Below are positions 32,066 to 63,648 of a stretch of DNA of 64,000 nt, in pieces; position 1 is the stretch's first letter, and each line of letters opens with the position of its first letter. The translations under genes were made by a program, and so were the position numbers. A model generated the notes under the pieces. It saw only the letters and a list, made by a program, of their open reading frames with translations. It was not told the origin of the DNA and did not search any database. Source of the stretch: Candidatus Gastranaerophilaceae bacterium. GTDB taxonomy: Bacteria; Cyanobacteriota; Vampirovibrionia; Gastranaerophilales; Gastranaerophilaceae. The stretch is taken from positions 1,658-65,657 of the forward strand of contig JAZTXF010000047.1 of assembly GCA_045636305.1 (NCBI GenBank). The letters run 5' to 3'.

Positions 32066-32084
32066 TAAAAGCTTTTAAAGAGAG

Positions 32085-32116
32085 AAAAAACGCAAGGATA
32101 ACCTTGCGTTTTTTTA
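32085..32116 (+). terminator. Rho-independent terminator
   Basis: A-run, CGCAAGG-ATAA-CCTTGCG, then T7. Confidence 0.9.
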
Positions 32117-32239
32117 TGTTTTATCATTCTTAGGGCGATGAGTGCGAGTAGTAACAGTTTTTGAGTCTTTTCAGTAATCGCAATTGACCGGAAAATCTAA
32201 ACGGAAATTACCTACATCGTAACATTTTGTTACATACAC

Positions 32240-32266
32240 TAAAGTTTTATCTGTTTTTGCCGATAA
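32240..32266 (+). promoter_or_regulatory. Sigma-28 (FliA/SigD)-type promoter, exact consensus
   Basis: TAAAGTTT (32240-32247), N11, GCCGATAA (32259-32266). This is identical to the enterobacterial consensus TAAAGTTT-N11-GCCGATAA. Confidence 0.75.
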
Positions 32267-32418
32267 ATACAAAGTAAGAGCAAACCAACGTCAAGGAGAA
32301 AACAAAAGATATAGGGATTAAATATTAAGTATTGTAACAATATATACAAAGTATGAAATTCGTCAATATTTTATGTTTTTAAATAGATGTGGTTAACAAA
32401 AGATAAGGTAAAAGAACA

Positions 32419-33216
32419 ATGGGTTTAGCAGCATCACAAGCAAGATTACTTCTATTAACAGCAAGAAAAAGCGATTTGGAATATCGTGCTCAAATGATTT
32501 GCCAAAGAAAAGTTATGTTGGCAATGCAAACAGAAGAGTTAGCTTCTAATTATTCTAAAGCGTTGAATAACAGAAAGCTCCATTTTACATATGCAGCAGA
32601 ATCAAACCCTCAAACAACTAAAACTGAATTATTGACTTATGAGGGCTTAACAGCTGCTCAAAACGCTAAGAAATATAGAATTGTAGATAGCATGGGTAGA
32701 GTTGTAATAACTACAGCAGAAGCGGCAAGTGGTAGTTGTCAAAGATTCTTCCCGAAAGAATCTTATCAACAAGGTGAGTCACCGTATTTAGAAACTATTG
32801 ATGAATCTATGTATACAACCCAATATAGCGAGATGTTGAAGAACCCTGAAGCATTTCAAAACGCGTTACAAGCAGGTACATTCTTTATTGAAGAAATTAC
32901 TGTAGAACCAGGACCTCCGGTGCAAACAGAAGATGCTGAGGGTAATGTAGCAGAAGTTCAAACATTTGTTGCTTCAACAAGCATAAAAGCAATATCTGCA
33001 ATGGATGATGTAGCATCAAAACTTTATCAAGATGATGATGCTGCTGCAGCTGCAGAGTATGAATATCAATCATTATTAATTCAAAACCAAGACAAACAAC
33101 TTGATGTTGAGTTGAAACAGGTTGAAACACAGCAAAAAGCTTGCGAAACAGAAATCGATTCAGTTAAAAAAGTTCTTGATAAAAACATTGAAAAATCATT
33201 CAAAACATTTGCATAA
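32419..33216 (+). CDS. Orphan 265-aa protein with helical/coiled-coil termini, downstream of a sigma-28 promoter
   Basis: Clean monocistronic ORF between two strong terminators. Starts MGLAASQARLLLLTARKSDLEYRAQ and ends in a heptad-rich tail. No family signature recognised. Confidence 0.7.
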   Translation: MGLAASQARLLLLTARKSDLEYRAQMICQRKVMLAMQTEELASNYSKALNNRKLHFTYAAESNPQTTKTELLTYEGLTAAQNAKKYRIVDSMGRVVITTAEAASGSCQRFFPKESYQQGESPYLETIDESMYTTQYSEMLKNPEAFQNALQAGTFFIEEITVEPGPPVQTEDAEGNVAEVQTFVASTSIKAISAMDDVASKLYQDDDAAAAAEYEYQSLLIQNQDKQLDVELKQVETQQKACETEIDSVKKVLDKNIEKSFKTFA

Positions 33217-33232
33217 TAAATAGATATAAAAG

Positions 33233-33262
33233 AAAAAGCAACCTTTGAAGGTTGCTTTTTCT
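33233..33262 (+). terminator. Rho-independent terminator
   Basis: AAAAAGCAACC-TTTGAA-GGTTGCTTTTT. Confidence 0.9.
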
Positions 33263-33368
33263 TTTATTTTTAAAATGTCCTTCATATGATTGATTTTGAC
33301 ATTTACAAAATTTACACCTTTAATTTTCTATAATATAATCATTTTGAATTAGATTATGGGGAAAAAGA

Positions 33369-35657
33369 ATGAATAATTTTAACGGCAAAGTGCCTACTTG
33401 CGATTTAGAAAGAGAACTTTTTGTTTCAGTTGAAGCTAAAACTCCTGATTATATTAAAAATAATAGTTTAATCAATCTTTCTGATAGGGGCGAATTAGTA
33501 TTTAGGCTAAAAAGAGAACATTTAGCTCCATATAGTGAAACAAATCCTGAGGGATTGGATTTGAATGATTGGTTTAAAAACTATGCTAAAGAAGCAGAAG
33601 TTTCAACCGCTGGAATTCGAGGACCTCAAAATATTTTGTACCCACATGATACGCGTTTTCCGATAAATTTGGTTGGTGTTATGTTAGCAACACATGCCAA
33701 AGCGCTTGCAGCAAAAGAAAATTATTTAGGTGAAAAATTATTAAAATTAGTAGGCAGTGAAGTTAGATATAATTCTGATAAATTTTTAGATGTTATTGCG
33801 AGAGTACAAGCGGCACAAGGAATAAAAACACTTACTTCTTATCAACGAAAAACTATGCCGATTTGGTTGGCATCATTTTTGGCATTTAAATTGGATTTGT
33901 TAGGCGGTGAATATATTACATCAAGTCACGGTATCAGTGTGAAAAATGCAACAAAAGATTTAAATTCTCAGGGTAGTCAGTACTTGCCTGAAGAGTCTAT
34001 GCAGTTTGTAAATAAAATAAAAGAAATTTTTGCGATTGTAGAACGCGATGGATATTATGATATTAAGCTATCTGCGGTAGATAATGAGCTTATTGATGAA
34101 AATTACATGAAATCCATAAATGATGGTATAGAGCTTTACAAAGAGTATTTGCAAAGTGGTGTTGCAAATGAAGTAAATCTGAATTTGATTAAAAATTTGA
34201 AAAATAAACTTGTTATTGAAAACGTTGGTGGTAGTGCTTATAGAACTTTATCAAAATTGTTGAGAGAGTTAGATATAGATGAAAAATTTGATTGGTTTAA
34301 TATTGAAGAAGACCCATTTTTCCATTCTATTGGTAAATACGACCACGATGCTAACGGGAATAAATGTTTCTATGATTATTCAGTAGATGCTACTGTTTTA
34401 TCTAAAGATGAAAATGGTGTTCCATATTTTCCTGTTATTAAAAGTTTGAAATATGACGAAAAGCTTAAGGATTATCCGGTAGGAACAGTTGTTTTGATAA
34501 CAGACCCTGATCATGACAGATTGACAGTTACTCAAGTTGAGAGCGCTTCTGAGTGCGGAAAACTTAATAAGTTAGGCGTTGATACAGTTAAGTTAGGCGA
34601 TGAAAAAGTTTTGGTTGTTTATACAGCAAACCAAGCATTTTTAATGATTATGGATTTTTGGGCAAAGCAGCTTAAAAAAAACGGAAGTTTTGAAAAAACA
34701 CCTAAGTTTATAATTAAAACTACAGCATCTGCAAAATCTTGGGATGAGTGGGCAAATAACAACGGTGTAAAAGTAGTTAATGTGCCTGTTGGTTTTAAAG
34801 AGATTGCCAATGTAATGAAAAAGGTAGAAAAACAAATTAATGATAAAGTAGAAAATGTTGTAGTTACAGACGTTTTTGGTAATGATATCAATTTAGGAAA
34901 AAATCCGAGAGTTATTTTTGCCGGTGAAGAGTCAGGAGGAATGATTATCGGCTCTGAAGATATCATAGTATCAAAATCAGGCAGAAAAGCGATTGCTATG
35001 CGTGAAAAGAGCGCTACTGAGGCAATTATTGTAGCCTCTGCGTTAGTTGGTGAATTAGAACAAACCGGTATGACTTTGTCTCAATATTTGTTAAGAGTTT
35101 TTGAAGATAATAATATTATTGCTCGTTATGATATAAGAGAAGATATTTCTTATTATAATGAAAGTGAGCCTGATATTCAAAAGCTTAAAGAGTCAAAAGT
35201 TGCGGGTGAAGCATTGAGAACGAAAAATGATTTGTTCTATTTAACTTTAGCTGTGATGTATAAAGATGGAAAAATTGAGTTAGATTCAATCAAAGAAATA
35301 TTAAGTTCTGTTTTTGATACTTTATCATTTGAGAATTTAACAGATGTTAAATTTGTAGGAGATGGGACTTATCTATTGTTCACTGATAAGTTTATAGAGA
35401 TTCGCCCTTCCGGAACAGATGCAAAAACAAAAGCATATGGCGCAGGTGATACGAAAGATAATATTAAAAAATATGCCCAAATTTTGGGTAATTATTCCGG
35501 CGAGTTGAATTCTGTTTATAAAAAATATGTTCCGGAACCAGAATATAATTCCGCAAAGGAAAAATCAATGAAAGATTATTTAGAGTTTACGGATAAAGAC
35601 GCAAATAATGAAAAATTTATTATACCTAATTATGAAATTACTTTAGGGATTAAGTAG
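33369..35657 (+). CDS. Divergent long-form alpha-D-phosphohexomutase superfamily protein (762 aa)
   Basis: ITSSHGIS in place of TASHNP. TDPDHDRL in place of DGDxDR. GEESGGMI. IRPSGTDAKTKAYG phosphate loop. Confidence 0.7.
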   Translation: MNNFNGKVPTCDLERELFVSVEAKTPDYIKNNSLINLSDRGELVFRLKREHLAPYSETNPEGLDLNDWFKNYAKEAEVSTAGIRGPQNILYPHDTRFPINLVGVMLATHAKALAAKENYLGEKLLKLVGSEVRYNSDKFLDVIARVQAAQGIKTLTSYQRKTMPIWLASFLAFKLDLLGGEYITSSHGISVKNATKDLNSQGSQYLPEESMQFVNKIKEIFAIVERDGYYDIKLSAVDNELIDENYMKSINDGIELYKEYLQSGVANEVNLNLIKNLKNKLVIENVGGSAYRTLSKLLRELDIDEKFDWFNIEEDPFFHSIGKYDHDANGNKCFYDYSVDATVLSKDENGVPYFPVIKSLKYDEKLKDYPVGTVVLITDPDHDRLTVTQVESASECGKLNKLGVDTVKLGDEKVLVVYTANQAFLMIMDFWAKQLKKNGSFEKTPKFIIKTTASAKSWDEWANNNGVKVVNVPVGFKEIANVMKKVEKQINDKVENVVVTDVFGNDINLGKNPRVIFAGEESGGMIIGSEDIIVSKSGRKAIAMREKSATEAIIVASALVGELEQTGMTLSQYLLRVFEDNNIIARYDIREDISYYNESEPDIQKLKESKVAGEALRTKNDLFYLTLAVMYKDGKIELDSIKEILSSVFDTLSFENLTDVKFVGDGTYLLFTDKFIEIRPSGTDAKTKAYGAGDTKDNIKKYAQILGNYSGELNSVYKKYVPEPEYNSAKEKSMKDYLEFTDKDANNEKFIIPNYEITLGIK

Positions 35658-37606: not shown

Positions 37607-38139
37607 TGTCAACAGTTAATCCTAAACAATTGAAAATTGCTAAACGTTATGCTTCTGCATTGGCAAAGCTGGACTCTCGAGATGAGGTATATTATGATTT
37701 GCAAAAAGTTGAGCAAGTTTTTAAAGAATCAGCAGAATTAAGAGAATTTTTAGAAAATCCTGTTATCACTGTTTTTGATAAAAAAGATGTGATGAGTAAA
37801 GTTTTTTCTGATTTAAAGGATAACACATTTAATTTTTTATCAATATTAATAGACAAAAATAGAATAGTTTATTTTGATGCGATATTAGAACAGTTATGTA
37901 ATGAGATAGATGAATTAAATAATGTTACTCGTGTGGAAATTGTTTCAGCTGTTGAATTGACAGAGGAAGAGAAGTTTAATTTAAAAGATAAGCTGCAGCG
38001 CAAATTAAGTTGTAATGTTTCTTCTAAGTATATAATTGATGAATCAATTTATGCAGGATTAATAATAAAAATTGGCGATAAAGTTATTGATAATAGCTTG
38101 AAATCCCGTTTTGAAAATTTAAAAAGACAATTAATGTAA
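37606..38139 (+). CDS. atpH: F1 ATP synthase delta subunit (OSCP)
   Basis: Position, size, and the [12 protein letters not shown]-terminus. Confidence 0.85.
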
Positions 38140-39670: not shown

Positions 39671-40600
39671 ATGCCAAATTTAAAAGACATAAAAGACAGA
39701 ATAAATAGTATTTCAAGTACTCAAAAAATCACAAAAGCTATGAAGATGGTAGCTGCTGCAAAGGTTAAAAAATCAGAAAACGCAGTAAAAGCATCTCGTC
39801 CATTTACGAGAGAAATGGCTAATATGTTTATTCGACTTTTAGATAGTGTGGAAAATGATTATTCCGTATCTGGTCTAAAAGTAGAAAAAGGAATTGATAA
39901 TTATCCTGAATTGTTAAAAAAGCGAATTAGAAAAAATGTAGGTATATTAGTTATAACTTCTAATAAGGGACTTGCTGGTGCGTATAATGCCAATGTTGTA
40001 AGATATGTTTTGAAGCTTGTAGAAGAGTATAATTCGCAAGGTGTTGGGACAAAACTTTTTGTCATAGGGCAAAGAGGGTATAATTCTTTAAAGCACCAAG
40101 TGGATCGTTATGGCTTTGAAATAAAGAAATTTTATCAAAATTTTCCTACTAATATTACAGGACCTTCCGCAACAGTAGTAGCTGAAGATATGGCTCAAGC
40201 TTTTGTAGATAACGAAATTGACGAGATAGAAATTGTTACTACGCGTTTCAAAAATATGATGAGTTACAAAGTTGAACAGTGGCAGATTTTGCCTGTTATA
40301 CTAGATAAAGATATTGATAAGACTGATCATAAATTAGATCCGCTTATGACATTTGATACTGATGCAAACAGTATTTTGCAAAAGCTTATGCCTTACTATA
40401 TTTCAAACATAATTTATCAGGCTTTGTTAGAGGCTACGGCTAGTGAATTAGCATCAAGAATGACCGCAATGTCATCAGCAACACAAAGCGCTCAAGATAT
40501 GATTAGAATGCTTACTGTTGATTACAACAAAGCAAGGCAAGCTGCTATTACGAATGAAATATCTGAGGTTGTTTCAGGAGCGGATGCATTAAAGAACTAG
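39671..40600 (+). CDS. atpG: F1 ATP synthase gamma subunit
   Basis: IKDRINSISSTQKITKAMKMVAAAK and C-terminal ITNEISEVVSGADAL. Confidence 0.95.
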   Translation: MPNLKDIKDRINSISSTQKITKAMKMVAAAKVKKSENAVKASRPFTREMANMFIRLLDSVENDYSVSGLKVEKGIDNYPELLKKRIRKNVGILVITSNKGLAGAYNANVVRYVLKLVEEYNSQGVGTKLFVIGQRGYNSLKHQVDRYGFEIKKFYQNFPTNITGPSATVVAEDMAQAFVDNEIDEIEIVTTRFKNMMSYKVEQWQILPVILDKDIDKTDHKLDPLMTFDTDANSILQKLMPYYISNIIYQALLEATASELASRMTAMSSATQSAQDMIRMLTVDYNKARQAAITNEISEVVSGADALKN

Positions 40601-40878
40601 TCTTCATTTTTGTAAGCGGAGGAAATTATTTCAGGTTTTTGATTATAGCTTTCTACAAAATGAAGGTAGCGTTCCATTCTAATTTTGAACCAATCGAGCA
40701 TTGTAATTGATCCGTAAACTTCAATTACTCGTGTACGGATTAGGTGTTTGAATGTTTTGCTGTAAGACTCTTCTATATAAGTTTTGCACTTACAGTTTAA
40801 TTCTTCGATTAGATCATATAATGTTTTTAACCAAGCTGCTTCAACATCAGCCTCATTTACACGATATTCTAGAATCAT
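40597..40878 (-). CDS. Orphan 93-aa protein downstream of a sigma-28-type promoter
   Basis: Clean ORF. No motif recognised. Its stop shares the CTAG tetranucleotide with the atpG stop on the other strand. Confidence 0.55.
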   Translation of the reverse strand: MILEYRVNEADVEAAWLKTLYDLIEELNCKCKTYIEESYSKTFKHLIRTRVIEVYGSITMLDWFKIRMERYLHFVESYNQKPEIISSAYKNED

Positions 40879-40913
40879 ACTTTCATTAACCTTGAAAATC
40901 TGCTACTATATAT

Positions 40914-40940
40914 TTATCGACATTTATTAGAAAAACTTTA
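40914..40940 (-). promoter_or_regulatory. Sigma-28-type promoter (minus strand)
   Basis: The reverse complement reads TAAAGTTT-N11-GTCGATAA. The -10 element ends 35 nt upstream of ATG 40878. Confidence 0.65.
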
Positions 40941-58297: not shown

Positions 58298-58797
58298 TCT
58301 TTTGCCAATTTTTCTATATCTAAAATTTTTGATAAAGCTTTAGCGTCACCTTTTAATTTAAAATATTCAGAAAATTTAGGTGTTGTTTTTAAATTGAATG
58401 AACGTCCGTTTTTATCTTTATGCTTGGAAATAAGACCCTTTTCAAGAAGTTCAGCAACATGTTCATAAGCGGTTGAACCTCTTAAATCTTTTAATTCTGT
58501 TTGGCGGATAGGTTCTTTAAGCGCAATTACAGACAATGTCTTTAAAACAGGTGCTTTTAATTCTACAGGACAAAGCTTTTCAACTATATCCATGTGATCA
58601 AGTTTTACTTGCAAAATATATCCGTCTGTATCGTCAATTTCAAGAGCTCCTTCTCTTGCTGAATAATCAAACATAAGCTCTAAAAGAGCTTCTTCAATGA
58701 TGTTTTCTTCTTCACCCAAAATTTCAGCAATTTCTTTAACTTCTACGGCTCTTGCAGTTATGAATAATACAGCTTCAACTCTTGCTTTTAACGACAT
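58294..58797 (-). CDS. scpB: Segregation and condensation protein B
   Basis: VEAVLFITARAVEVKEIAEIL and a second winged-helix region. Confidence 0.88.
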   Translation of the reverse strand: MSLKARVEAVLFITARAVEVKEIAEILGEEENIIEEALLELMFDYSAREGALEIDDTDGYILQVKLDHMDIVEKLCPVELKAPVLKTLSVIALKEPIRQTELKDLRGSTAYEHVAELLEKGLISKHKDKNGRSFNLKTTPKFSEYFKLKGDAKALSKILDIEKLAKE

Positions 58798-59684
58798 TAT
58801 GCACTAAGCTCCTCTGTTTTTTCTTCAGCTTCAATACCGGCTTTTGAAGGTATTGTACTTTTAACAACATATAAATCACCATAGAATTCATTTTGCATTA
58901 GGTCGTAATCTGATTCGGCAGTCAAAAAAAGTAGCGAAATGTACGCACTTATTTTATCCATTCCAAGCAGCGTTAACGTTCTCAGTTCAATTTTATCTTC
59001 GTGTTCAAAAATTCTGGATAAATTTTCTTTGAGTTTCATTACACCGTTTTCTATGTATTCATCGTGTGCAAGATTTATAATATCATCCGCACTAAGTCTT
59101 GCGTATGAGCGAACTCTTCTTTTTGCTCTTTCGTGCGCATTTTTAAGGCTACGCTTGCGTTCCATTTCTTCATAAAATTGTAACTGTCTGATAAGGTCTT
59201 TTAATGTAACAACCCTACTTCTGTTTAATTTTACACTGGTTCTGCGCTCCAAGACTTCTTCCAGTGAAACAACATTATTTGTGTTTATATATTCTTGTTC
59301 ACTTTGTCCGAATTCATCATAGTCATCTGTATAATCAAAATTTTCTTCTTCCTGTGTGTCAAAGTCACACACGTCAATACCTTCAAGAATATTTGATTTT
59401 AATTTTAATAAAATGGCTGCAAACAGCAATGTACGACCTGTCAATCTGAGATTTTGTGCTTTCATTTTAAAAAGTTGCGCAAGGTATTTGTCAGTGATAT
59501 CTACAATGTCAATATTCCAAGGGTCAACCTTTCCACTTTTAGCCATACCAACCAAAATTTCTATTCCATCAGCTTCATTGTTGTTGTGTGTCGTAGAGAT
59601 GAATTCTAAATCAGACATGCCTGAAATGTCAGTATCATTGGGCTTAAGGTTATAATATTCAGCTGTATATTGGTTTTCTGCCAT
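58797..59684 (-). CDS. scpA: Segregation and condensation protein A (kleisin)
   Basis: KVDPWNIDIVDITDKYL. Lies between smc and scpB. Confidence 0.85.
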   Translation of the reverse strand: MAENQYTAEYYNLKPNDTDISGMSDLEFISTTHNNNEADGIEILVGMAKSGKVDPWNIDIVDITDKYLAQLFKMKAQNLRLTGRTLLFAAILLKLKSNILEGIDVCDFDTQEEENFDYTDDYDEFGQSEQEYINTNNVVSLEEVLERRTSVKLNRSRVVTLKDLIRQLQFYEEMERKRSLKNAHERAKRRVRSYARLSADDIINLAHDEYIENGVMKLKENLSRIFEHEDKIELRTLTLLGMDKISAYISLLFLTAESDYDLMQNEFYGDLYVVKSTIPSKAGIEAEEKTEELSA

Positions 59685-59699
59685 TATCTCTTTCCTGCC

Positions 59700-62600
59700 C
59701 TAGTCTCTTAGTTTTACCCCTGTAACTCTTGTTATACCCTTTTCTTTTTGAGTTACACCAATTGTTCTATTAGCTGATTCTATCATAGGTTTTCTATGAC
59801 TAACTACTATAAATTGCGTATTTTCTGATTGCTTTTGAACTATATGTGCTAATTTTTCAACATTAATACCGTCAAGGTTCGCATCTACTTCATCCAGAGC
59901 GTAGAATGGTGCCGGCATGTATCTTTGTATCGCAAATACGAAAGCTAAAGCTGTTAATGATTTTTCACCACCGGACATAGCTTCAAGTCTTTGTTTTTTC
60001 TTGTCACGAGGTTGTGCTTCGATAGTCATACCTCCGTTGAATGGTGATTCCTCATTTTCTAAAACCAGTGTGCCTTCACCATCAGAAAGCTTGTTAAAAA
60101 TGTCTTTAAAGTTCTCATTAATTGCATTATATGCTTTTAAGAAAGTCTCTTTTTTAAGTTGTTCAAAGCCATTCATTCTTTCAAGAATTTGAATGCGCTC
60201 TTGTGAGAGTGTATCTATTTTTGTTTTTAACTCTTGTTGACGGGTTAAAACTTCATCGTATGCCGTAAGTGCTCGCATGTTAACAAGACCCAGTTCGTCC
60301 ATTTTTCTTTGTAGACGAGCAATTTTACTATTTATTTCATCAACAGATATTTCTAATGGTTCAAGCTTATTAACGTCTATATTTGCTGATTTTAATTCGT
60401 TTGTAACTTCTTCAAGTTGTGGTTCAAGTTCTCGTCTTCGTGCTTTATAGCTTTCAACTTGTTCTGCTAATCTTTCTAGATTGCTTTCATATAAATTTTT
60501 CAGTTTTTCCAATTCTAGAAGTTGATTATTAACTTCATCACGTTTAGCCTGAAGTTCAATAAGTTTTTCGCCCAACACGCGTATTTGTTCTTCAAGCTCT
60601 TGTACTTTAGCATCTATTTCCTTAATTTCTTGAGAGTATCGATCTTTATCAGTGTTTAATGTTTGATTGTCAGCCAATAATTTCTCAATTTGTTCGTGTT
60701 TAGTTTTTATAACTTCTTCGTTAAATGCTATTTCTCTGTTGAAATCATTTATATCATTGTTAGCTCTGGCAATATTGCCTTCCAATGCTTTTATTTCATT
60801 TTCCTTAGCTTCTGTTAATTCTTTTAACTTTTGAAGTTCTTCTTCCGGCATCAGGCTTTCAATTTTTTCAATTTCTGCTTGAACGTTAAGTGCTTTTTCA
60901 TTAATATCAAGCATCTTTTCTTCAATTTTTTCAAGTTTTTTATCATATTCTGAAATTTTAGGTTCAATTTCAGAAATTTGTTTTTTACGTTCTTCTATAT
61001 TTTTATCAGTGTCTTCTTGCGAACGAATAAGATTAGAAAGTTCTAATTTTGATTTATTAAATTCAGTCATTGCATTTGAGTAGTTGATACGTACCGAATC
61101 TAATTTGCGCTCTAACTCCATTTTTTTGTTCTCAAGTGAAGAAAGTTTTTTCTCCATTTCTTTTAGTCTTGTTTTAAATGTATCAAGTTCATTATTTTGA
61201 GCTTGAGAGAATTTAAGCCCTGACTTAGCAGCAGAACCACCGGTAATTGAGCCTGATTTTTCAAAAATTTCTCCTTGTAGCGTAACTACACGGTATTTAC
61301 CAATCATTCTTCTTGCACTTTCAAAATCTTCAACAACAAGTGTATCTCCAAGTGCATGCCAGAAAGCATCGGTATAATTGTCATCAAAATCAATTAAATT
61401 TATCGCGTAATCTATAACACCTTTTTCTTTTGGAAGTTTTAATGAGTTAGGAGCTGCTTTGATTTTGTTTAATGGTAAAAATGTAGCACGTCCCGCTTTT
61501 GAAGATTTTAGAATTTCAACGCAAATTTTCGCAACATCTTCATCATCGACAACGATGGATCGCATTCTGCTGCCCATTGCAACTTCAAGAGCAACGGAAT
61601 ATTCTTCTTCAACTTGTCCTAACTGTACGAGGGGAGCATGAACACCTTTTACTTTTGCGCTCATAACTGTATCAACAGGACGGCCCAAATTCATTTCATC
61701 AAAAGCCATTTTTTGAGCTTCCAGTGTTGAAATTTTCCTGTATGATGTGTTTATGTTGTAGCTTAAATCAGATATCTCATTTTTAGTTGTATCCAGCTCG
61801 TGCAAGGTATTTTGCTGAACAATTTTGAAATCTTCAAGTTCTTTTGCCAGTTCTTGAACTTGTAGTTCTAAGGAGTCTTTGTTTCCGGCAAAATTTTCTT
61901 TGAAATTCTCTAGTTCTTCAAGAGAGTTTTTAGCTGCGTCTAATTCTTTTCTGAATGAATTTACTTCAGCTTCCAGTGGTGCTTGTTCTTTTATTAAAGC
62001 ATTTTCTTGAGCTTGAATTGTATCAAGTTCTTTTCTGAGTTCATTGCGTTTTTGAACGTGTTGGTCTGCAGTTTGGTTTAGTCCTGTCTGCTCTTGTATT
62101 ATTTGATTAAGCTCATCTTTTTTTATATGAATTTGTTTTTCTGTTTCTTCGATTTCAGCTTTTTTAATATCTATATTTTCTAAAGCTTTTTTGTTTTTTT
62201 CGTTAGAATTTTCAATACCGTTTTTGGCATTTTCAATGGTACGTAAATTGTCATGGATTTGTTTATCAGCAAAGTTTATGGCAGAGCTTTTGTTATTAAT
62301 TTGTCCTTTTAACTCTTCGACTCGCTTTTTAATTTCAATTTGTTCAGCTTCGCCTTTTGCTTTTACTTCTTCCGAAATTTCGTTATATTTTGCACGAGTT
62401 TGTGAAAGTTCTTCTTGCAGCTCTTTTAGCTTAAATTCTTCTTCTTTTTTCTTTTTATTTGCATCCAGAATGCTTTCGTGCGCAATTTCTAAAGCTTTTT
62501 TAATGTCAAAATATTTGGCTGATGTTAAATTGCTTTCGTATCCTTTTTTTTCTTCTTGTAATTTCTGATATTTGAGAGCTTGTTCTCTTTCTGCTGCCAA

Positions 62601-63197: not shown

Positions 63198-63316
63198 GTG
63201 GTAGTGTTTTTCCCGTTGTCTAGACAATAATCTTATATTAAATTAAACAATAACTATAATCTAGTGTCAAAAAGGTTAAGAATGTTACAAAATTGTTAAA
63301 ATTATATGTTTTTCTC

Positions 63317-63343
63317 TAAAGGTTAAAAAAAAATAGTCGATAA
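63317..63343 (+). promoter_or_regulatory. Sigma-28-type promoter
   Basis: TAAAGGTT-N11-GTCGATAA. The -10 element ends 6 nt before the first ATG and 26 nt before the SD-preceded ATG at 63370. Confidence 0.6.
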
Positions 63344-63369
63344 CTATTATGTCAAATGGAGAAAAAAAC

Positions 63370-63648
63370 ATGGATGCTAAAATGTTACAAACAAATGCTC
63401 CCGTGAACTTTTTTATGGCAGGTGGGCATTTTATAACTGATAATTTCAACATGAAAATAATTGACACTTCATTGCCAAATGCCTTTGAAGATTATGATTT
63501 TGTGTCAATAAAGCCTGACATGATGAGTGAATATATTGAATCGGAAAAATTACCGCCTCCGCAAGAAGAGGTGAAAGGTGGTGTGTTTGCATCGATTTCT
63601 AATTTTTTTGGAGGTCAAAAAAACAATATTGAACAAGAAAGCCCTTGA
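63370..63648 (+). CDS. Orphan ~92-aa protein downstream of a sigma-28-type promoter
   Basis: The ORF track gives 63349..63648. ATG at 63370 has GGAG 8 nt upstream and is compatible with the predicted TSS. No motif recognised. Confidence 0.55.
   Translation: MDAKMLQTNAPVNFFMAGGHFITDNFNMKIIDTSLPNAFEDYDFVSIKPDMMSEYIESEKLPPPQEEVKGGVFASISNFFGGQKNNIEQESP

What the first reader, a model, noticed from the sequence alone, without database searches (positions are those of the whole stretch)
32240..33270. Exact-consensus sigma-28 promoter drives a monocistronic 265-aa orphan protein with flagellin-like layout but no flagellin signature
Seen directly: TAAAGTTT-N11-GCCGATAA at 32240-32266 matches the FliA/sigma-28 consensus at every position. 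It sits in a 300-nt intergenic region about 150 nt upstream of an ORF that is insulated by strong terminators on both sides (32085-32116 and 33233-33262). The protein begins MGLAASQARLLLLTARKSDLEYRAQ. It ends in a heptad-rich helix (QDKQLDVELKQVETQQKACETEIDSVKKVLDK) and has a compositionally different middle with an AAAAA/acidic patch. I recognise no known family. Inference: it is a late (class-3) flagellar or motility-associated structural or regulatory protein of an undescribed family. Two more promoters of the same type precede other orphan genes at 40.9 kb and 63.3 kb, so a real regulon is more likely than a chance hit. By a rough composition-based estimate, this 12-position motif should occur far less than once in 64 kb on both strands.
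Basis: partly seen in the sequence, partly recalled or inferred. Interest (0 to 1): 0.72.

Follow-up and report, generated by a model that had tools for sequence, protein, structure and literature searches.

The report
Sigma-28-driven flagellin-shaped protein family, undescribed
A gut-associated non-photosynthetic cyanobacterium (Melainabacteria) uses a textbook flagellar late promoter to express one member of a very large unnamed protein family. The family is laid out like flagellin, with invariant end helices and a hypervariable middle, but matches no known family or fold, so it is probably an undescribed surface or flagellum-associated component.

Summary
An exact TAAAGTTT-N11-GCCGATAA sits at 32240-32266, where about 9e-5 exact matches are expected per window. 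It lies 152 nt upstream of a terminator-flanked 265-aa ORF (32419-33216).

The protein is not an orphan. It belongs to a family of at least 3,700 clusters at 50% identity, nearly all from Gastranaerophilales/Melainabacteria MAGs and all labelled "hypothetical". There is no hit in Pfam, NCBIfam, PHROGs, PDB sequences or Foldseek.

Every member, from 109 to about 900 aa, keeps the same N-terminal (~50 aa) and C-terminal (~60 aa) helices. A beta-rich tip domain, where present, carries one insertion hot-spot.

A sigma-28-type promoter lies upstream of 37 of 89 family genes, against 1 of 818 control genes. The spacers differ between genomes, and one case is in a 53% GC relative. FliA orthologs occur on the same scaffolds as family members in 3 of 3 near-complete scaffolds. 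Flagellar genes lie within 10 kb in 18 of 85 loci.

A second conserved cis-module (TGTAAC boxes plus a proximal element) fills the supposed "5' UTR".

Best reading: a FliA-dependent late gene for a new, probably exported and self-assembling, flagellin-like structural protein. Export and assembly are inferred, not shown. Whether this particular genome has flagella could not be checked.

The parts
32084..32115 (+). Intrinsic-terminator-like hairpin ending the upstream rpmI-rplT unit
   Evidence: 14-bp stem, 5 GC pairs, T-run; sequence. rpmI/rplT identity comes from the Pfam annotation of the syntenic locus.
32219..32234 (.). GTAACA-N3-TGTTAC box (reads TGTAAC-N4-TGTTAC on the minus strand), 5 nt upstream of the -35 element. 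It is one instance of the TGTAAC boxes typical of family upstream regions.
   Evidence: 1 mismatch to TGTAAC-N4-TGTAAC. TGTAAC occurs in 74% of family upstream regions versus 6.9% of controls; the direct-repeat form occurs in 43% versus 2%.
32240..32266 (+). Sigma-28 (FliA)-type promoter: -35 TAAAGTTT (32240-32247), 11-nt spacer, -10 GCCGATAA (32259-32266). The transcription start is predicted near 32273-32276.
   Evidence: Exact match; expected 9e-5 per window; conserved upstream of homologs in many genomes. The start site is inferred from the usual 7-9 nt distance and was not mapped.
32333..32396 (+). Proximal conserved cis-module: TGTAAC-AATATATAC-N5-TATGAAAT-N..-ATGTTTTTAAATA-N-TGTGGTT. 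It lies between the sigma-28 promoter and the ribosome-binding site.
   Evidence: It is nearly invariant in the window subclade. The same linear motif precedes family genes that lack the sigma-28 motif. It folds as a hairpin in the window subclade only (z = -3.5). No consensus RNA structure appears across 35 sequences and there is no Rfam match. It is therefore more likely a DNA-level element (regulator sites or a second promoter) than an RNA structure.
32405..32409 (+). Shine-Dalgarno-like AAGGT, 10 nt before the ATG
   Evidence: Sequence; conserved as TAAGGT/TAAAGG in the alignment.
32419..33216 (+). Complete ORF, 265 aa (29.6 kDa, pI 4.7), a member of the unnamed family
32425..32565 (+). 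N-terminal helix (residues 3-49), the near-invariant family signature MGLAASQARLLLLTARKSDLEYRAQ...
   Evidence: AlphaFold model with pLDDT 85-97 in this stretch; 77% mean pairwise identity; the motif sits at residue 1 in all members.
32566..33036 (+). Beta-rich tip domain (residues 50-206), hypervariable (20% mean identity) around a small conserved scaffold (LTY, FQxALRxG)
   Evidence: No structural neighbour in the PDB.
32749..32808 (+). Insertion hot-spot loop (about residues 111-130). Long family members carry a single 400-650-aa insertion here.
   Evidence: pLDDT below 50 at residues 113-122; HMM mapping of the long forms.
33037..33210 (+). C-terminal helix (residues 207-264), starting with the conserved DDxAAAxAEYE motif and ending ...SFKxFA
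   Evidence: 63% mean identity.
33226..33267 (.). Bidirectional terminator-like hairpin closing the monocistronic unit
   Evidence: 19-bp stem; T-run visible.
40914..40940 (-). Second sigma-28-type promoter (1 mismatch), driving the 93-aa ORF 40597-40878 (-)
   Evidence: Promoter and gene are conserved in L001, L003, L083 and L084.
63317..63343 (+). Third sigma-28-type promoter (2 mismatches), preceded by TGTTAC-N4-TTGTTAA boxes. The downstream small ORF most likely starts at ATG 63370.

Best explanation
The gene is a late (FliA/sigma-28-dependent), monocistronic, probably highly expressed member of a large, unnamed protein family specific to Vampirovibrionia/Melainabacteria.

Shown:
- RNA polymerase carrying the lineage's well-conserved FliA ortholog has an exact-consensus promoter here.
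- The same promoter type recurs upstream of family genes across the order.
- The protein consists of two near-invariant terminal helices that must run back alongside each other, plus a beta-rich tip domain with one hypervariable insertion site.
- Members range from a bare 109-aa helix-loop-helix to about 900 aa.
- Many genomes carry several paralogs, often in tandem.

Inferred:
- Like flagellin, other flagellar axial proteins and type-III needle or filament subunits, the protein is exported through the flagellar type III apparatus.
- It assembles through its terminal helical hairpin into, or onto, an extracellular structure: the flagellar filament, or a filament or cap of its own.
- The variable tip domain faces the environment (host, phage), which would explain its diversification.

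A second conserved cis-module (TGTAAC boxes plus the proximal element) adds a further layer of control, probably a DNA-binding regulator or a second promoter. Similar boxes also occur upstream of the canonical flagellin genes in L088/L089 and upstream of flhB in L048.
For: Promoter:
- Exact match, with 9e-5 expected.
- TAAAG-N14-16-[CT]CGA[TC]A lies upstream of 37/89 family genes versus 1/818 controls.
- Nine loci score 16/16 with unrelated spacers.
- 30 of the 41 strongest motif hits in 1.4 Mb lie directly upstream of family genes.
- A 14/16 site is the only hit of 13/16 or better in a 12-kb, 53% GC relative, and it sits in front of the minimal member.

Sigma factor:
- FliA/WhiG orthologs are 69-100% identical across the order.
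- They lie on the same scaffolds (1,872,718, 1,337,435 and 2,080,716 bp) as family members.
- motAB is 5 kb from fliA on one of these scaffolds.

Architecture:
- N- and C-terminal motifs sit at the extreme termini of every member from 196 to 903 aa and in the 109-aa form.
- Mean pairwise identity is 77% (N), 20% (middle) and 63% (C).
- The long forms carry a single insertion site.
- The AlphaFold model has pLDDT 87, with helices 3-49 and 207-264 and a beta domain.
- The only fold analogues are antiparallel coiled coil plus globular tip: SMC hinge, V-ATPase D, IpaD.

Paralogs: at least 18 MAGs among the 80 loci hold two or more copies, and tandem pairs occur.

Flagellar linkage:
- flgL/flgK are adjacent in L046.
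- fliA is within 2-3 kb in L015/L016.
- flgD/E, flgF/G, flhA, flhB or fliS lie within 10 kb in other loci; overall 18/85 loci.
- A canonical flagellin gene is 4-5 kb away in L088/L089 and has a TGTAAC box upstream.

Other: no signal peptide or transmembrane segment is visible in the sequence.
Against: - There is no direct evidence of export, polymerisation or surface location.
- No sequence or structural similarity to any flagellar axial protein, cap, chaperone or needle protein was found.
- Canonical flagellins exist in the lineage (PMC3787301), so the family does not simply replace flagellin.
- Adjacency to flagellar genes is only about 2-fold above a rough expectation, and several of the loci are orthologous, so they are not independent.
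- The 64-kb window holds no flagellar gene, and the flagellar status of this genome is unknown.
- About three quarters of Gastranaerophilales are reported to lack hook, filament, motor and ring genes (the 2026 preprint), yet the family appears widespread.
- About 30% of family genes show neither the sigma-28 motif nor the proximal element within 250 nt.
- The few known flagellar genes in the loci did not show the sigma-28 motif.
Confidence: 0.5

Rival explanations
1. The family is the dedicated exported cargo, or the distal structure, of the 'reduced' flagellar apparatus (export gate plus ATPase plus rod only) kept by most Gastranaerophilales. On this reading it is not a component of a motile flagellum but a secreted, host-facing variable protein or a non-flagellin appendage.
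For: - Soo et al.'s supplementary table shows 'non-flagellated' Gastranaerophilales keeping FlhA, FlhB, FliP, FliR, FliI, FliJ, FliE and FlgB/C/F/G, but no FliC/D, FlgE/K/L, Mot or ring proteins.
- The 2026 preprint reports about 25% complete sets.
- The family was found in at least 570 stretches across species-representative genomes.
- It occurs in a MAG labelled Candidatus Gastranaerophilus (L060), a genus reported as non-flagellated.
- flhA, flhB or flgF/G lie within 10 kb in L017, L018, L032, L033 and L048.
- The window itself lacks flagellar genes but keeps three sigma-28 promoters.
Against: - I could not assign any family-bearing genome to the reduced class with the tools at hand.
- Several family loci clearly belong to genomes with complete sets (L046 and L030 have L/P-ring and hook-associated protein genes).
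- Secretion through a rod-only apparatus across an outer membrane has no demonstrated route here.
Confidence: 0.2
2. It is a cytoplasmic coiled-coil protein of the FliA regulon, for example a regulator, adaptor, chaperone-like factor or motor-associated brake. It would act through its conserved hairpin, and the tip domain would be a variable interaction module.
For: - The conserved hairpin alone (109-aa form) could be a binding module.
- Long antiparallel coiled coils with globular tips are common in cytoplasmic proteins; the top fold analogues are SMC hinge and V-ATPase D/F1 gamma.
- The protein is acidic and soluble-looking, has no secretion signal, and contains three cysteines.
Against: - Tip-domain identity is 20%, against 63-77% in the termini.
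- Insertions of 400-650 aa at one loop, multiple tandem paralogs and thousands of divergent clusters are the signature of surface-exposed, diversifying proteins, not of cytoplasmic regulators.
- The cysteines are not conserved.
Confidence: 0.2
3. It is an extremely divergent member of a known flagellar family: flagellin, the FliD cap, a hook-associated protein, or a rod/hook protein.
For: - It has conserved terminal helices with a variable centre, a sigma-28 promoter and a monocistronic unit, as flagellin genes do.
- The gene before fliS in L045 is not a recognisable FliD, so some components in this lineage may have diverged beyond detection.
Against: - There is no Flagellin_N/C, FliD_N/C or Flg_bb_rod match, while the same library readily detects the lineage's own flagellin (E 1.6e-22), FliS, FlgN and the rod-binding domain.
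- hhalign probability is at most 1.2% against 21 flagellar proteins, including this lineage's flagellin-type protein (L006) and its FlgL and FlgK (L046).
- The model has only two long helices and no D1-type bundle.
- Foldseek gives no flagellar hit for the whole protein or for the tip domain.
- FlgK and FlgL are present next to a family member in L046.
Confidence: 0.07
4. The promoter match is a chance occurrence in AT-rich DNA, or the ORF is not a real gene.
For: The window is 67% A+T. At 3 mismatches the motif count is at chance level.
Against: - The exact match is expected 9e-5 times per window.
- The motif recurs upstream of homologs in dozens of genomes.
- The ORF has thousands of homologs with conserved termini and a confident structure model.
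Confidence: 0.01

Closest known systems
Bacterial flagellin (FliC/Hag; Pfam Flagellin_N PF00669 and Flagellin_C PF00700)
   Same: - It is transcribed from a consensus sigma-28 promoter as a monocistronic, terminator-bounded unit.
- Its N- and C-terminal helices are strongly conserved and pair with each other.
- The polypeptide goes out to, and returns from, a hypervariable domain inserted at the tip.
- Family members span a very wide size range.
- Genomes carry multiple, often tandem, paralogs.
- There is no signal peptide.
   Different: - There is no flagellin sequence signature.
- It has only one helix at each end (47 and 58 residues) instead of the D0 plus D1 four-helix arrangement.
- The tip-proximal domain has a fold with no PDB neighbour.
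- Canonical flagellins coexist with it in the lineage.
- Polymerisation and export are unproven.
Type III secretion needle and filament subunits and tip/cap proteins (PrgI/MxiH, EspA; IpaD/LcrV; FliD). This comparison rests on my own knowledge of these families.
   Same: - The minimal 109-aa member is a bare helix-loop-helix, the building plan of needle and EspA-type subunits.
- The larger members (coiled-coil stalk plus distal mixed domain) resemble tip/cap proteins in topology.
- IpaD appears among the non-significant top Foldseek analogues.
   Different: - There is no significant sequence or structure match (E >= 0.1).
- No injectisome genes were seen.
- The family is far more variable and more multi-copy than the tip or cap proteins I know of.
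Sigma-28-dependent proteins secreted through the flagellar apparatus that are not filament parts (Campylobacter FlaC, FspA, Feds). Recalled from my own knowledge, not tested here.
   Same: The concept is the same: a FliA-driven gene, unlinked to flagellar operons, encoding a protein without a signal peptide that could leave the cell through the flagellar export gate.
   Different: There is no homology. Those proteins are small families in one genus, whereas this is an order-wide, hyper-diverse family with a conserved hairpin.
Class-3 (FliA-dependent) promoters of enterobacteria and SigD promoters of Bacillus (TAAA-N15-GCCGATAA/T)
   Same: It is identical to the consensus at all 16 scored positions. 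Clade-specific -10 variants (GCCGATAT, GTCGATAA, CCGACA) are seen in relatives.
   Different: It is accompanied by lineage-specific TGTAAC boxes. In this subclade a conserved proximal module lies between the promoter and the start codon. No anti-sigma or hierarchy information is available for this lineage.

Membership tests
Flagellin (PF00669/PF00700) | Flagellin_N and Flagellin_C sequence signatures | tested here: not met
   Pfam gives no hit. The same library detects this lineage's canonical flagellin at E 1.6e-22. hhalign probability is 0.2-0.3% against E. coli FliC and the L006 flagellin.
Flagellin (PF00669/PF00700) | D0 plus D1 helical core (N-D0, N-D1a/b, C-D1, C-D0) recognisable by structure | tested here: not met
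   The AlphaFold model has only two long helices (3-49 and 207-264). Foldseek against the PDB returns no flagellin for either the whole model or the tip domain.
Flagellin (PF00669/PF00700) | Conserved termini with a hypervariable central insertion; multi-copy genes | tested here: met
   Identity is 77% / 20% / 63%. The long forms have a single insertion site. Paralogs and tandem pairs occur. This is a resemblance in design, not evidence of homology.
Flagellin (PF00669/PF00700) | Export by the flagellar T3SS and polymerisation into a filament | not testable with these tools
   Needs secretion assays, flagellar preparations with mass spectrometry, or cryo-EM.
FliA (sigma-28) class-3 regulon | -35 TAAA and -10 GCCGATAA at the correct spacing upstream of the gene | tested here: met
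   16/16 match at 32240-32266; 9e-5 expected.
FliA (sigma-28) class-3 regulon | Promoter conserved upstream of orthologs and paralogs (phylogenetic footprint) | tested here: met
   37/89 versus 1/818; the 53% GC relative.
FliA (sigma-28) class-3 regulon | A fliA gene in the same genome | tested here: inconclusive
FliA is present on the same scaffolds as family members in 3 of 3 near-complete scaffolds and within 3 kb in L015/L016.
FliA (sigma-28) class-3 regulon | Transcription start at the promoter, dependent on FliA | not testable with these tools
   Needs dRNA-seq or 5'-RACE, and fliA perturbation or in-vitro transcription.
FliD filament cap (PF02465/PF07195) | FliD_N/FliD_C signatures; position next to fliS | tested here: not met
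   No Pfam hit; hhalign probability 0.1%. The family genes in L023/L045 are about 6 kb from fliS, not adjacent to it.
Flagellar rod/hook/hook-associated axial proteins (Flg_bb_rod PF00460, PF06429) | N-terminal ANNLAN-type motif and the C-terminal rod/hook motif | tested here: not met
   No Pfam hit. hhalign probability is at most 1.2% against FlgB, C, E, F, G, K and L. FlgK and FlgL are separately present in L046.
T3SS needle / EspA-type hairpin subunits | Short helix-loop-helix subunit that polymerises; encoded with a T3SS | tested here: inconclusive
   The 109-aa minimal member has the helix-loop-helix plan, but there is no Pfam or PDB sequence match. Polymerisation is untestable here.
Phage or plasmid-borne protein | Homologs in phage or plasmid records or PHROGs | tested here: not met
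   PHROGs gives none and plasmids give none. The single 'phage' record hit (MW495066.1) looks like a mislabelled bacterial contig.

The most novel reading that the evidence does not exclude
Gastranaerophilales, including the many lineages scored as 'non-flagellated' because they keep only the flagellar export gate, ATPase and rod, use FliA and that apparatus to export this family. The family would then be a previously unrecognised class of self-assembling hairpin subunits. These would form a non-flagellin surface filament or cap whose hypervariable tip domains face the animal host and phages. On this reading the 'reduced flagellum' of gut Melainabacteria is a functioning secretion/appendage system with its own structural protein family, which has a novel fold.
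Probability: 0.2. Interest if true: 0.85.

Novelty: new variant of a known kind. Interest (0 to 1): 0.66.

Why it matters
The family has thousands of divergent clusters and is confined to a little-studied, host-associated sister lineage of the Cyanobacteria. It has escaped all annotation, yet it carries the clearest regulatory mark of a late flagellar gene and the design logic of flagellin.

If it is exported and assembled, three things would follow:
- It would add a new structural protein class, with a novel fold, to the flagellar/type-III world.
- It could explain why most Gastranaerophilales keep a partial flagellar gene set.
- It would be a candidate for the main variable surface antigen that these gut bacteria show to host immunity and to phages, alongside or instead of TLR5-visible flagellin.

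The conserved sigma-28 promoters, TGTAAC boxes and proximal module also give a first handle on transcriptional wiring in an uncultured lineage.

Tried and rejected
1. Known-family assignment failed in every library. Pfam, NCBIfam and PHROGs, a PDB sequence profile, hhalign against 21 flagellar proteins, Foldseek of the full model against PDB and BFVD and Foldseek of the tip-domain-only model against PDB were all negative.

2. I first read the conserved leader as an RNA element. It forms a hairpin with z = -3.5 and four compensatory pairs in the seven-sequence subclade. I rejected this as the general explanation because 35 sequences from several clades keep the linear motif but give no consensus structure, and Rfam has nothing.

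3. I looked for the sigma-28 motif upstream of recognisable flagellar genes in the fetched loci (flgM/N/K/L, fliS, the flagellin in L006, fliA). None was convincing, so I could not calibrate the motif on known class-3 genes of this lineage.

4. I tried to see distant, possibly annotated relatives with the exhaustive representative search. Only the best 150 of 3,739 hits are listed, and all are close family members.

5. My flagellin search used too strict an E-value and returned only four proteins.

6. I considered FliD identity because the 726-aa gene before fliS in L045 lacks FliD domains. That protein is acidic, low-complexity and unrelated to the family.

7. I considered sigma-70, ECF (TGTAAC-N17-CGxx) and NtcA-like (GTA-N8-TAC) readings of the proximal module. 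The spacings are inconsistent across clades, so none is adopted.

8. Supplementary files of PMC3787301 held no searchable flagellar gene table.
Full report
**1. What is in the sequence**

From the window's base composition (67% A+T), I expect 9e-5 exact matches, 0.0045 with up to 1 mismatch and 0.10 with up to 2 mismatches in 64 kb on both strands. The observed counts are 1, 2 and 3. At 3 mismatches the count is at chance level (4 found, 1.7 expected), so the 37797 site is noise.

The ORF 32419-33216 encodes the 265-aa protein as quoted. It follows rpmI-rplT and a terminator-like hairpin at 32084-32115, and is closed by a 19-bp hairpin at 33226-33267.

**2. The protein is not an orphan**

A word-indexed search found 750 homologs with E <= 1e-3. 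All are unnamed or 'hypothetical', and the named sources are Candidatus Gastranaerophilales (names). An exhaustive profile search found 3,739 clusters at 50% identity, 2,620 of them below 1e-10.

The window therefore comes from a non-photosynthetic cyanobacterial relative (Vampirovibrionia). Its gene order rpmI-rplT-X-PGM-like-atp operon-93-aa ORF-DUF192-uvrC is conserved in a relative.

**3. Anatomy of the family**

- In an alignment of 40 members, residues 1-49 and 207-265 are near-invariant and the middle is hypervariable with large insertions. Mean pairwise identity is 77%, 20% and 63% for the three regions.
- HMMs of the two termini hit about 100 ORFs in the fetched loci. In every one, from 196 to 903 aa, the N motif starts at residue 1 and the C motif ends at the stop codon.
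- The long forms (544-903 aa) carry one single insertion of 400-650 aa at profile positions about 112-130. This is the one loop of the window protein that AlphaFold models with pLDDT below 50 (residues 113-122).
- The model (pLDDT 87) has an N-terminal helix at 3-49, a beta-rich domain, and a C-terminal helix at 207-264.
- A higher-GC relative encodes a 109-aa minimal member made only of the two helices and a short loop.
- So the conserved core is a helical hairpin, and the tip domain and its insertions are add-ons.
- At least 18 MAGs among the 80 fetched loci carry two or more copies. Tandem pairs are common, for example in L011, L032, L033 and L051.

**4. Comparison with known families**

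- Pfam: best E 0.012, below cutoff.
- NCBIfam: no hits.
- PHROGs: no hits.
- PDB sequence profile: no hits.
- hhalign against 18 E. coli flagellar proteins plus this lineage's flagellin-type protein (L006) and its FlgL and FlgK (L046): probability at most 1.2%.
- Foldseek of the full model against PDB and BFVD: best E 0.1 and 0.03. The top entries are only topological analogues, that is, an antiparallel coiled coil plus a globular tip: SMC hinge, V-ATPase D/F1 gamma and IpaD.
- Foldseek of a tip-domain-only model (pLDDT 81.5) against PDB: best E 0.36, TM below 0.25.

The same Pfam library does detect this lineage's canonical flagellin, FliS, FlgN and the rod-binding domain. The negative result is therefore informative: this is not a flagellin, cap, hook-associated or rod/hook protein by any test I could run.

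**5. Is the sigma-28 promoter real?**

- The best motif within 400 nt upstream of each homolog scored 14-16 of 16 in about 35 loci. The spacers were unrelated, and the distance to the ATG fell in two classes, 35-50 nt and 145-200 nt.
- A stringent scan of 1.4 Mb of loci plus the window gave 41 hits, about 30 of them directly upstream of family genes.
- The regular expression TAAAG-N14-16-[CT]CGA[TC]A is present upstream of 37/89 family genes versus 1/818 other genes.
- In the 53% GC relative, TAAAGGTT-N12-TCCGATAA is the only hit of 13/16 or better in 12 kb, and it lies 71 nt before the minimal member's ATG.
- The long-form clade uses a consistent CCGACA variant of the -10 element.

This is a strong phylogenetic footprint.

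The cognate factor exists. FliA/WhiG orthologs are 69-100% identical across the order. fliA lies 2-3 kb from the family gene in L015/L016.

The window's second promoter (40914-40940, minus strand) and its 93-aa gene are conserved together in L001, L003, L083 and L084.

**6.

The 152 nt between the -10 element and the ATG hold a module at about 32333-32396: TGTAAC-AATATATAC...TATGAAAT...ATGTTTTTAAATA..TGTGGTT. It is almost invariant among seven genomes whose proteins are only 45-61% identical.

It folds into a hairpin in this subclade (z = -3.5). However, the same linear motif lies immediately upstream of family genes in other clades that have no sigma-28 motif, and an alignment of 35 such regions has no consensus RNA structure. 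Rfam has no match.

I therefore read it as a DNA-level element, either regulator sites or a second promoter. In the window subclade the sigma-28 promoter lies upstream of it, and both elements are present in 9 of 89 upstream regions.

TGTAAC occurs in 74% of family upstream regions versus 6.9% of controls. The 10-bp-phased direct repeat occurs in 43% versus 2%. In the window a GTAACA-N3-TGTTAC box sits 5 nt upstream of the -35 element, at 32219-32234. Similar boxes precede canonical flagellin genes in L088/L089, flhB in L048, and the 63.3-kb promoter of the window.

**7. Link to flagella**

tblastn and jackhmmer with E. coli flagellar proteins found flagellar genes within 10 kb of the family gene in 18 of 85 loci:
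- flgL and flgK immediately adjacent, plus flgN, flgI, flgH, flgG and flgF, in L046;
- flgD/flgE in L063;
- flgF/G in L030 and L032;
- flhA in L018 and L033;
- flhB in L017 and L048;
- fliS in L023 and L045;
- a canonical flagellin 4-5 kb away in L006, L088 and L089.

My rough expectation for a random 20-kb window is 7-10%. The enrichment is therefore modest, and some loci are orthologous. I count this as suggestive only.

The window itself has no flagellar gene.

From the literature:
- Some Melainabacteria have complete flagellar sets and canonical flagellins (PMC3787301).
- Soo et al. list for their Gastranaerophilales genomes only FlhA, FlhB, FliP, FliR, FliI, FliJ, FliE and FlgB/C/F/G (PMC4040986 supplement).
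- A 2026 preprint gives about 25% of genomes with complete sets.

**8. Interpretation**

Shown:
- FliA-type promoter control.
- Membership of a new, very large, lineage-restricted family.
- A conserved-hairpin plus variable-tip design.
- Multi-copy genes.
- No known fold.

Inferred: the protein is exported through the flagellar type III pathway and assembles through its terminal helices, exposing the tip domain. The grounds for this are:
- the design logic of flagellin and other axial proteins (conserved termini, out-and-back topology, one hypervariable insertion site, huge size range, tandem paralogs);
- the late-gene promoter;
- the strong terminators;
- the absence of a signal peptide;
- the existence of a bare-hairpin minimal form, which resembles needle/EspA-type subunits.

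I put this at about 0.5. The main alternatives are:
- a cargo or appendage of the reduced export apparatus, which is the most novel reading (0.2);
- a cytoplasmic coiled-coil factor of the FliA regulon (0.2);
- an unrecognisably divergent known axial protein (0.07).

A chance match is excluded.

**9. Limits**

- I could not see the distant tail of the homolog lists.
- I could not model oligomers.
- The hairpin pairing of the two helices is inferred from topology and from the nature of the Foldseek analogues. It was not read from model coordinates.

**10. Verdict**

The finding is a real, previously unannotated, sigma-28-controlled family with flagellin-like architecture and a novel fold. I rate it a new variant of a known kind (late flagellar-regulon structural gene), with a credible chance of being something more unusual. 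Interest: 0.66.

Noticed in passing
window 40597-40940 (-): A 93-aa ORF with no family in Pfam, NCBIfam or PHROGs lies behind a 15/16 sigma-28 promoter. Gene and promoter are conserved together, between the atp operon and DUF192-uvrC, in L001, L003, L083 and L084. It is an unidentified small member of the same regulon.
   Followed up: partly
window 63270-63648 (+): The third sigma-28 site (14/16) is preceded by TGTTAC-N4-TTGTTAA boxes. The listed ORF start (63349) is only 5 nt after the -10 element, so the real start is more likely ATG 63370, behind a GGAG at 63357-63360 (92 aa). No family was found in Pfam, NCBIfam or PHROGs.
   Followed up: partly
family upstream regions in L001-L084; window 32219-32234 and 32333-32338: An orientation-specific TGTAAC motif, often as a 10-bp-phased direct repeat, occurs in 74% of family upstream regions versus 7% of controls. 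It also precedes canonical flagellin genes (L088, L089), flhB (L048) and another sigma-28-driven small gene (L020). It is probably the site of an unknown motility regulator.
   Followed up: partly
L092 = MW495066.1 126794-138928 ('Microcystis phage MaAM05', 273,876 bp): This 'jumbo phage' record encodes SecDF, AcpS, SMC-ScpA-ScpB and an annotated fliA. Its smc-scpA-scpB genes are collinear with window 58390-61547 and 50-60% identical at the protein level. It looks like a contig of a Vampirovibrionia-like bacterium, possibly a predator of the Microcystis culture, deposited as a phage. It carries the 109-aa minimal family member with its own sigma-28 promoter.
   Followed up: partly
L017 4323-4991 and L048 4293-4964: A second, divergent FliA/WhiG-like sigma factor (222 aa; TIGR02479 E 7.7e-24, below cutoff) is encoded directly downstream of flhB, about 5 kb from family genes that have the proximal module but no sigma-28 consensus. 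It might read the alternative promoter type.
   Followed up: no
L061 10001-14248; the same arrangement in L071 and L076: A conserved triad: a long family member (662-772 aa), then an unknown protein of about 354 aa (no Pfam or NCBIfam hit; its C-terminal part looks FliK-like to the eye only), then a 336-353-aa family member. Each family gene has a CCGACA-variant sigma-28 motif.
   Followed up: partly
L081/L088/L089 (scaffolds of 1.87 and 2.08 Mb and a 107,541-bp contig): The conserved neighbourhood is: 522-aa membrane protein, family gene, 570-770-aa unknown protein, XerC/D-like integrase, MTHFR, then a convergent monocistronic canonical flagellin. In L081 the flagellin slot is occupied by a glycosyltransferase instead. 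The flagellin genes there have sigma-70-like promoters (TTTACA-17-TAATAT/TAAAAT), not sigma-28.
   Followed up: partly
window 33369-35657 (+): The gene immediately downstream is a 762-aa protein with only weak phosphoglucomutase/phosphomannomutase domain hits (E 1e-8 to 1e-4) and much extra sequence. It is conserved in synteny with the family gene and the atp operon in relatives.
   Followed up: no
L045 12840-15904: The fliS gene is preceded by a 726-aa, highly acidic protein with a low-complexity C-terminal half and no FliD domains, rather than by a recognisable fliD. It is followed by a weak FliT-like ORF. The filament cap of this lineage may be unrecognised.
   Followed up: no
window 37797-37823 (+): A sigma-28-like site with 3 mismatches lies inside the ATP synthase operon. 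This is at chance level (1.4-1.7 expected) and should not be counted as part of the regulon.
   Followed up: yes
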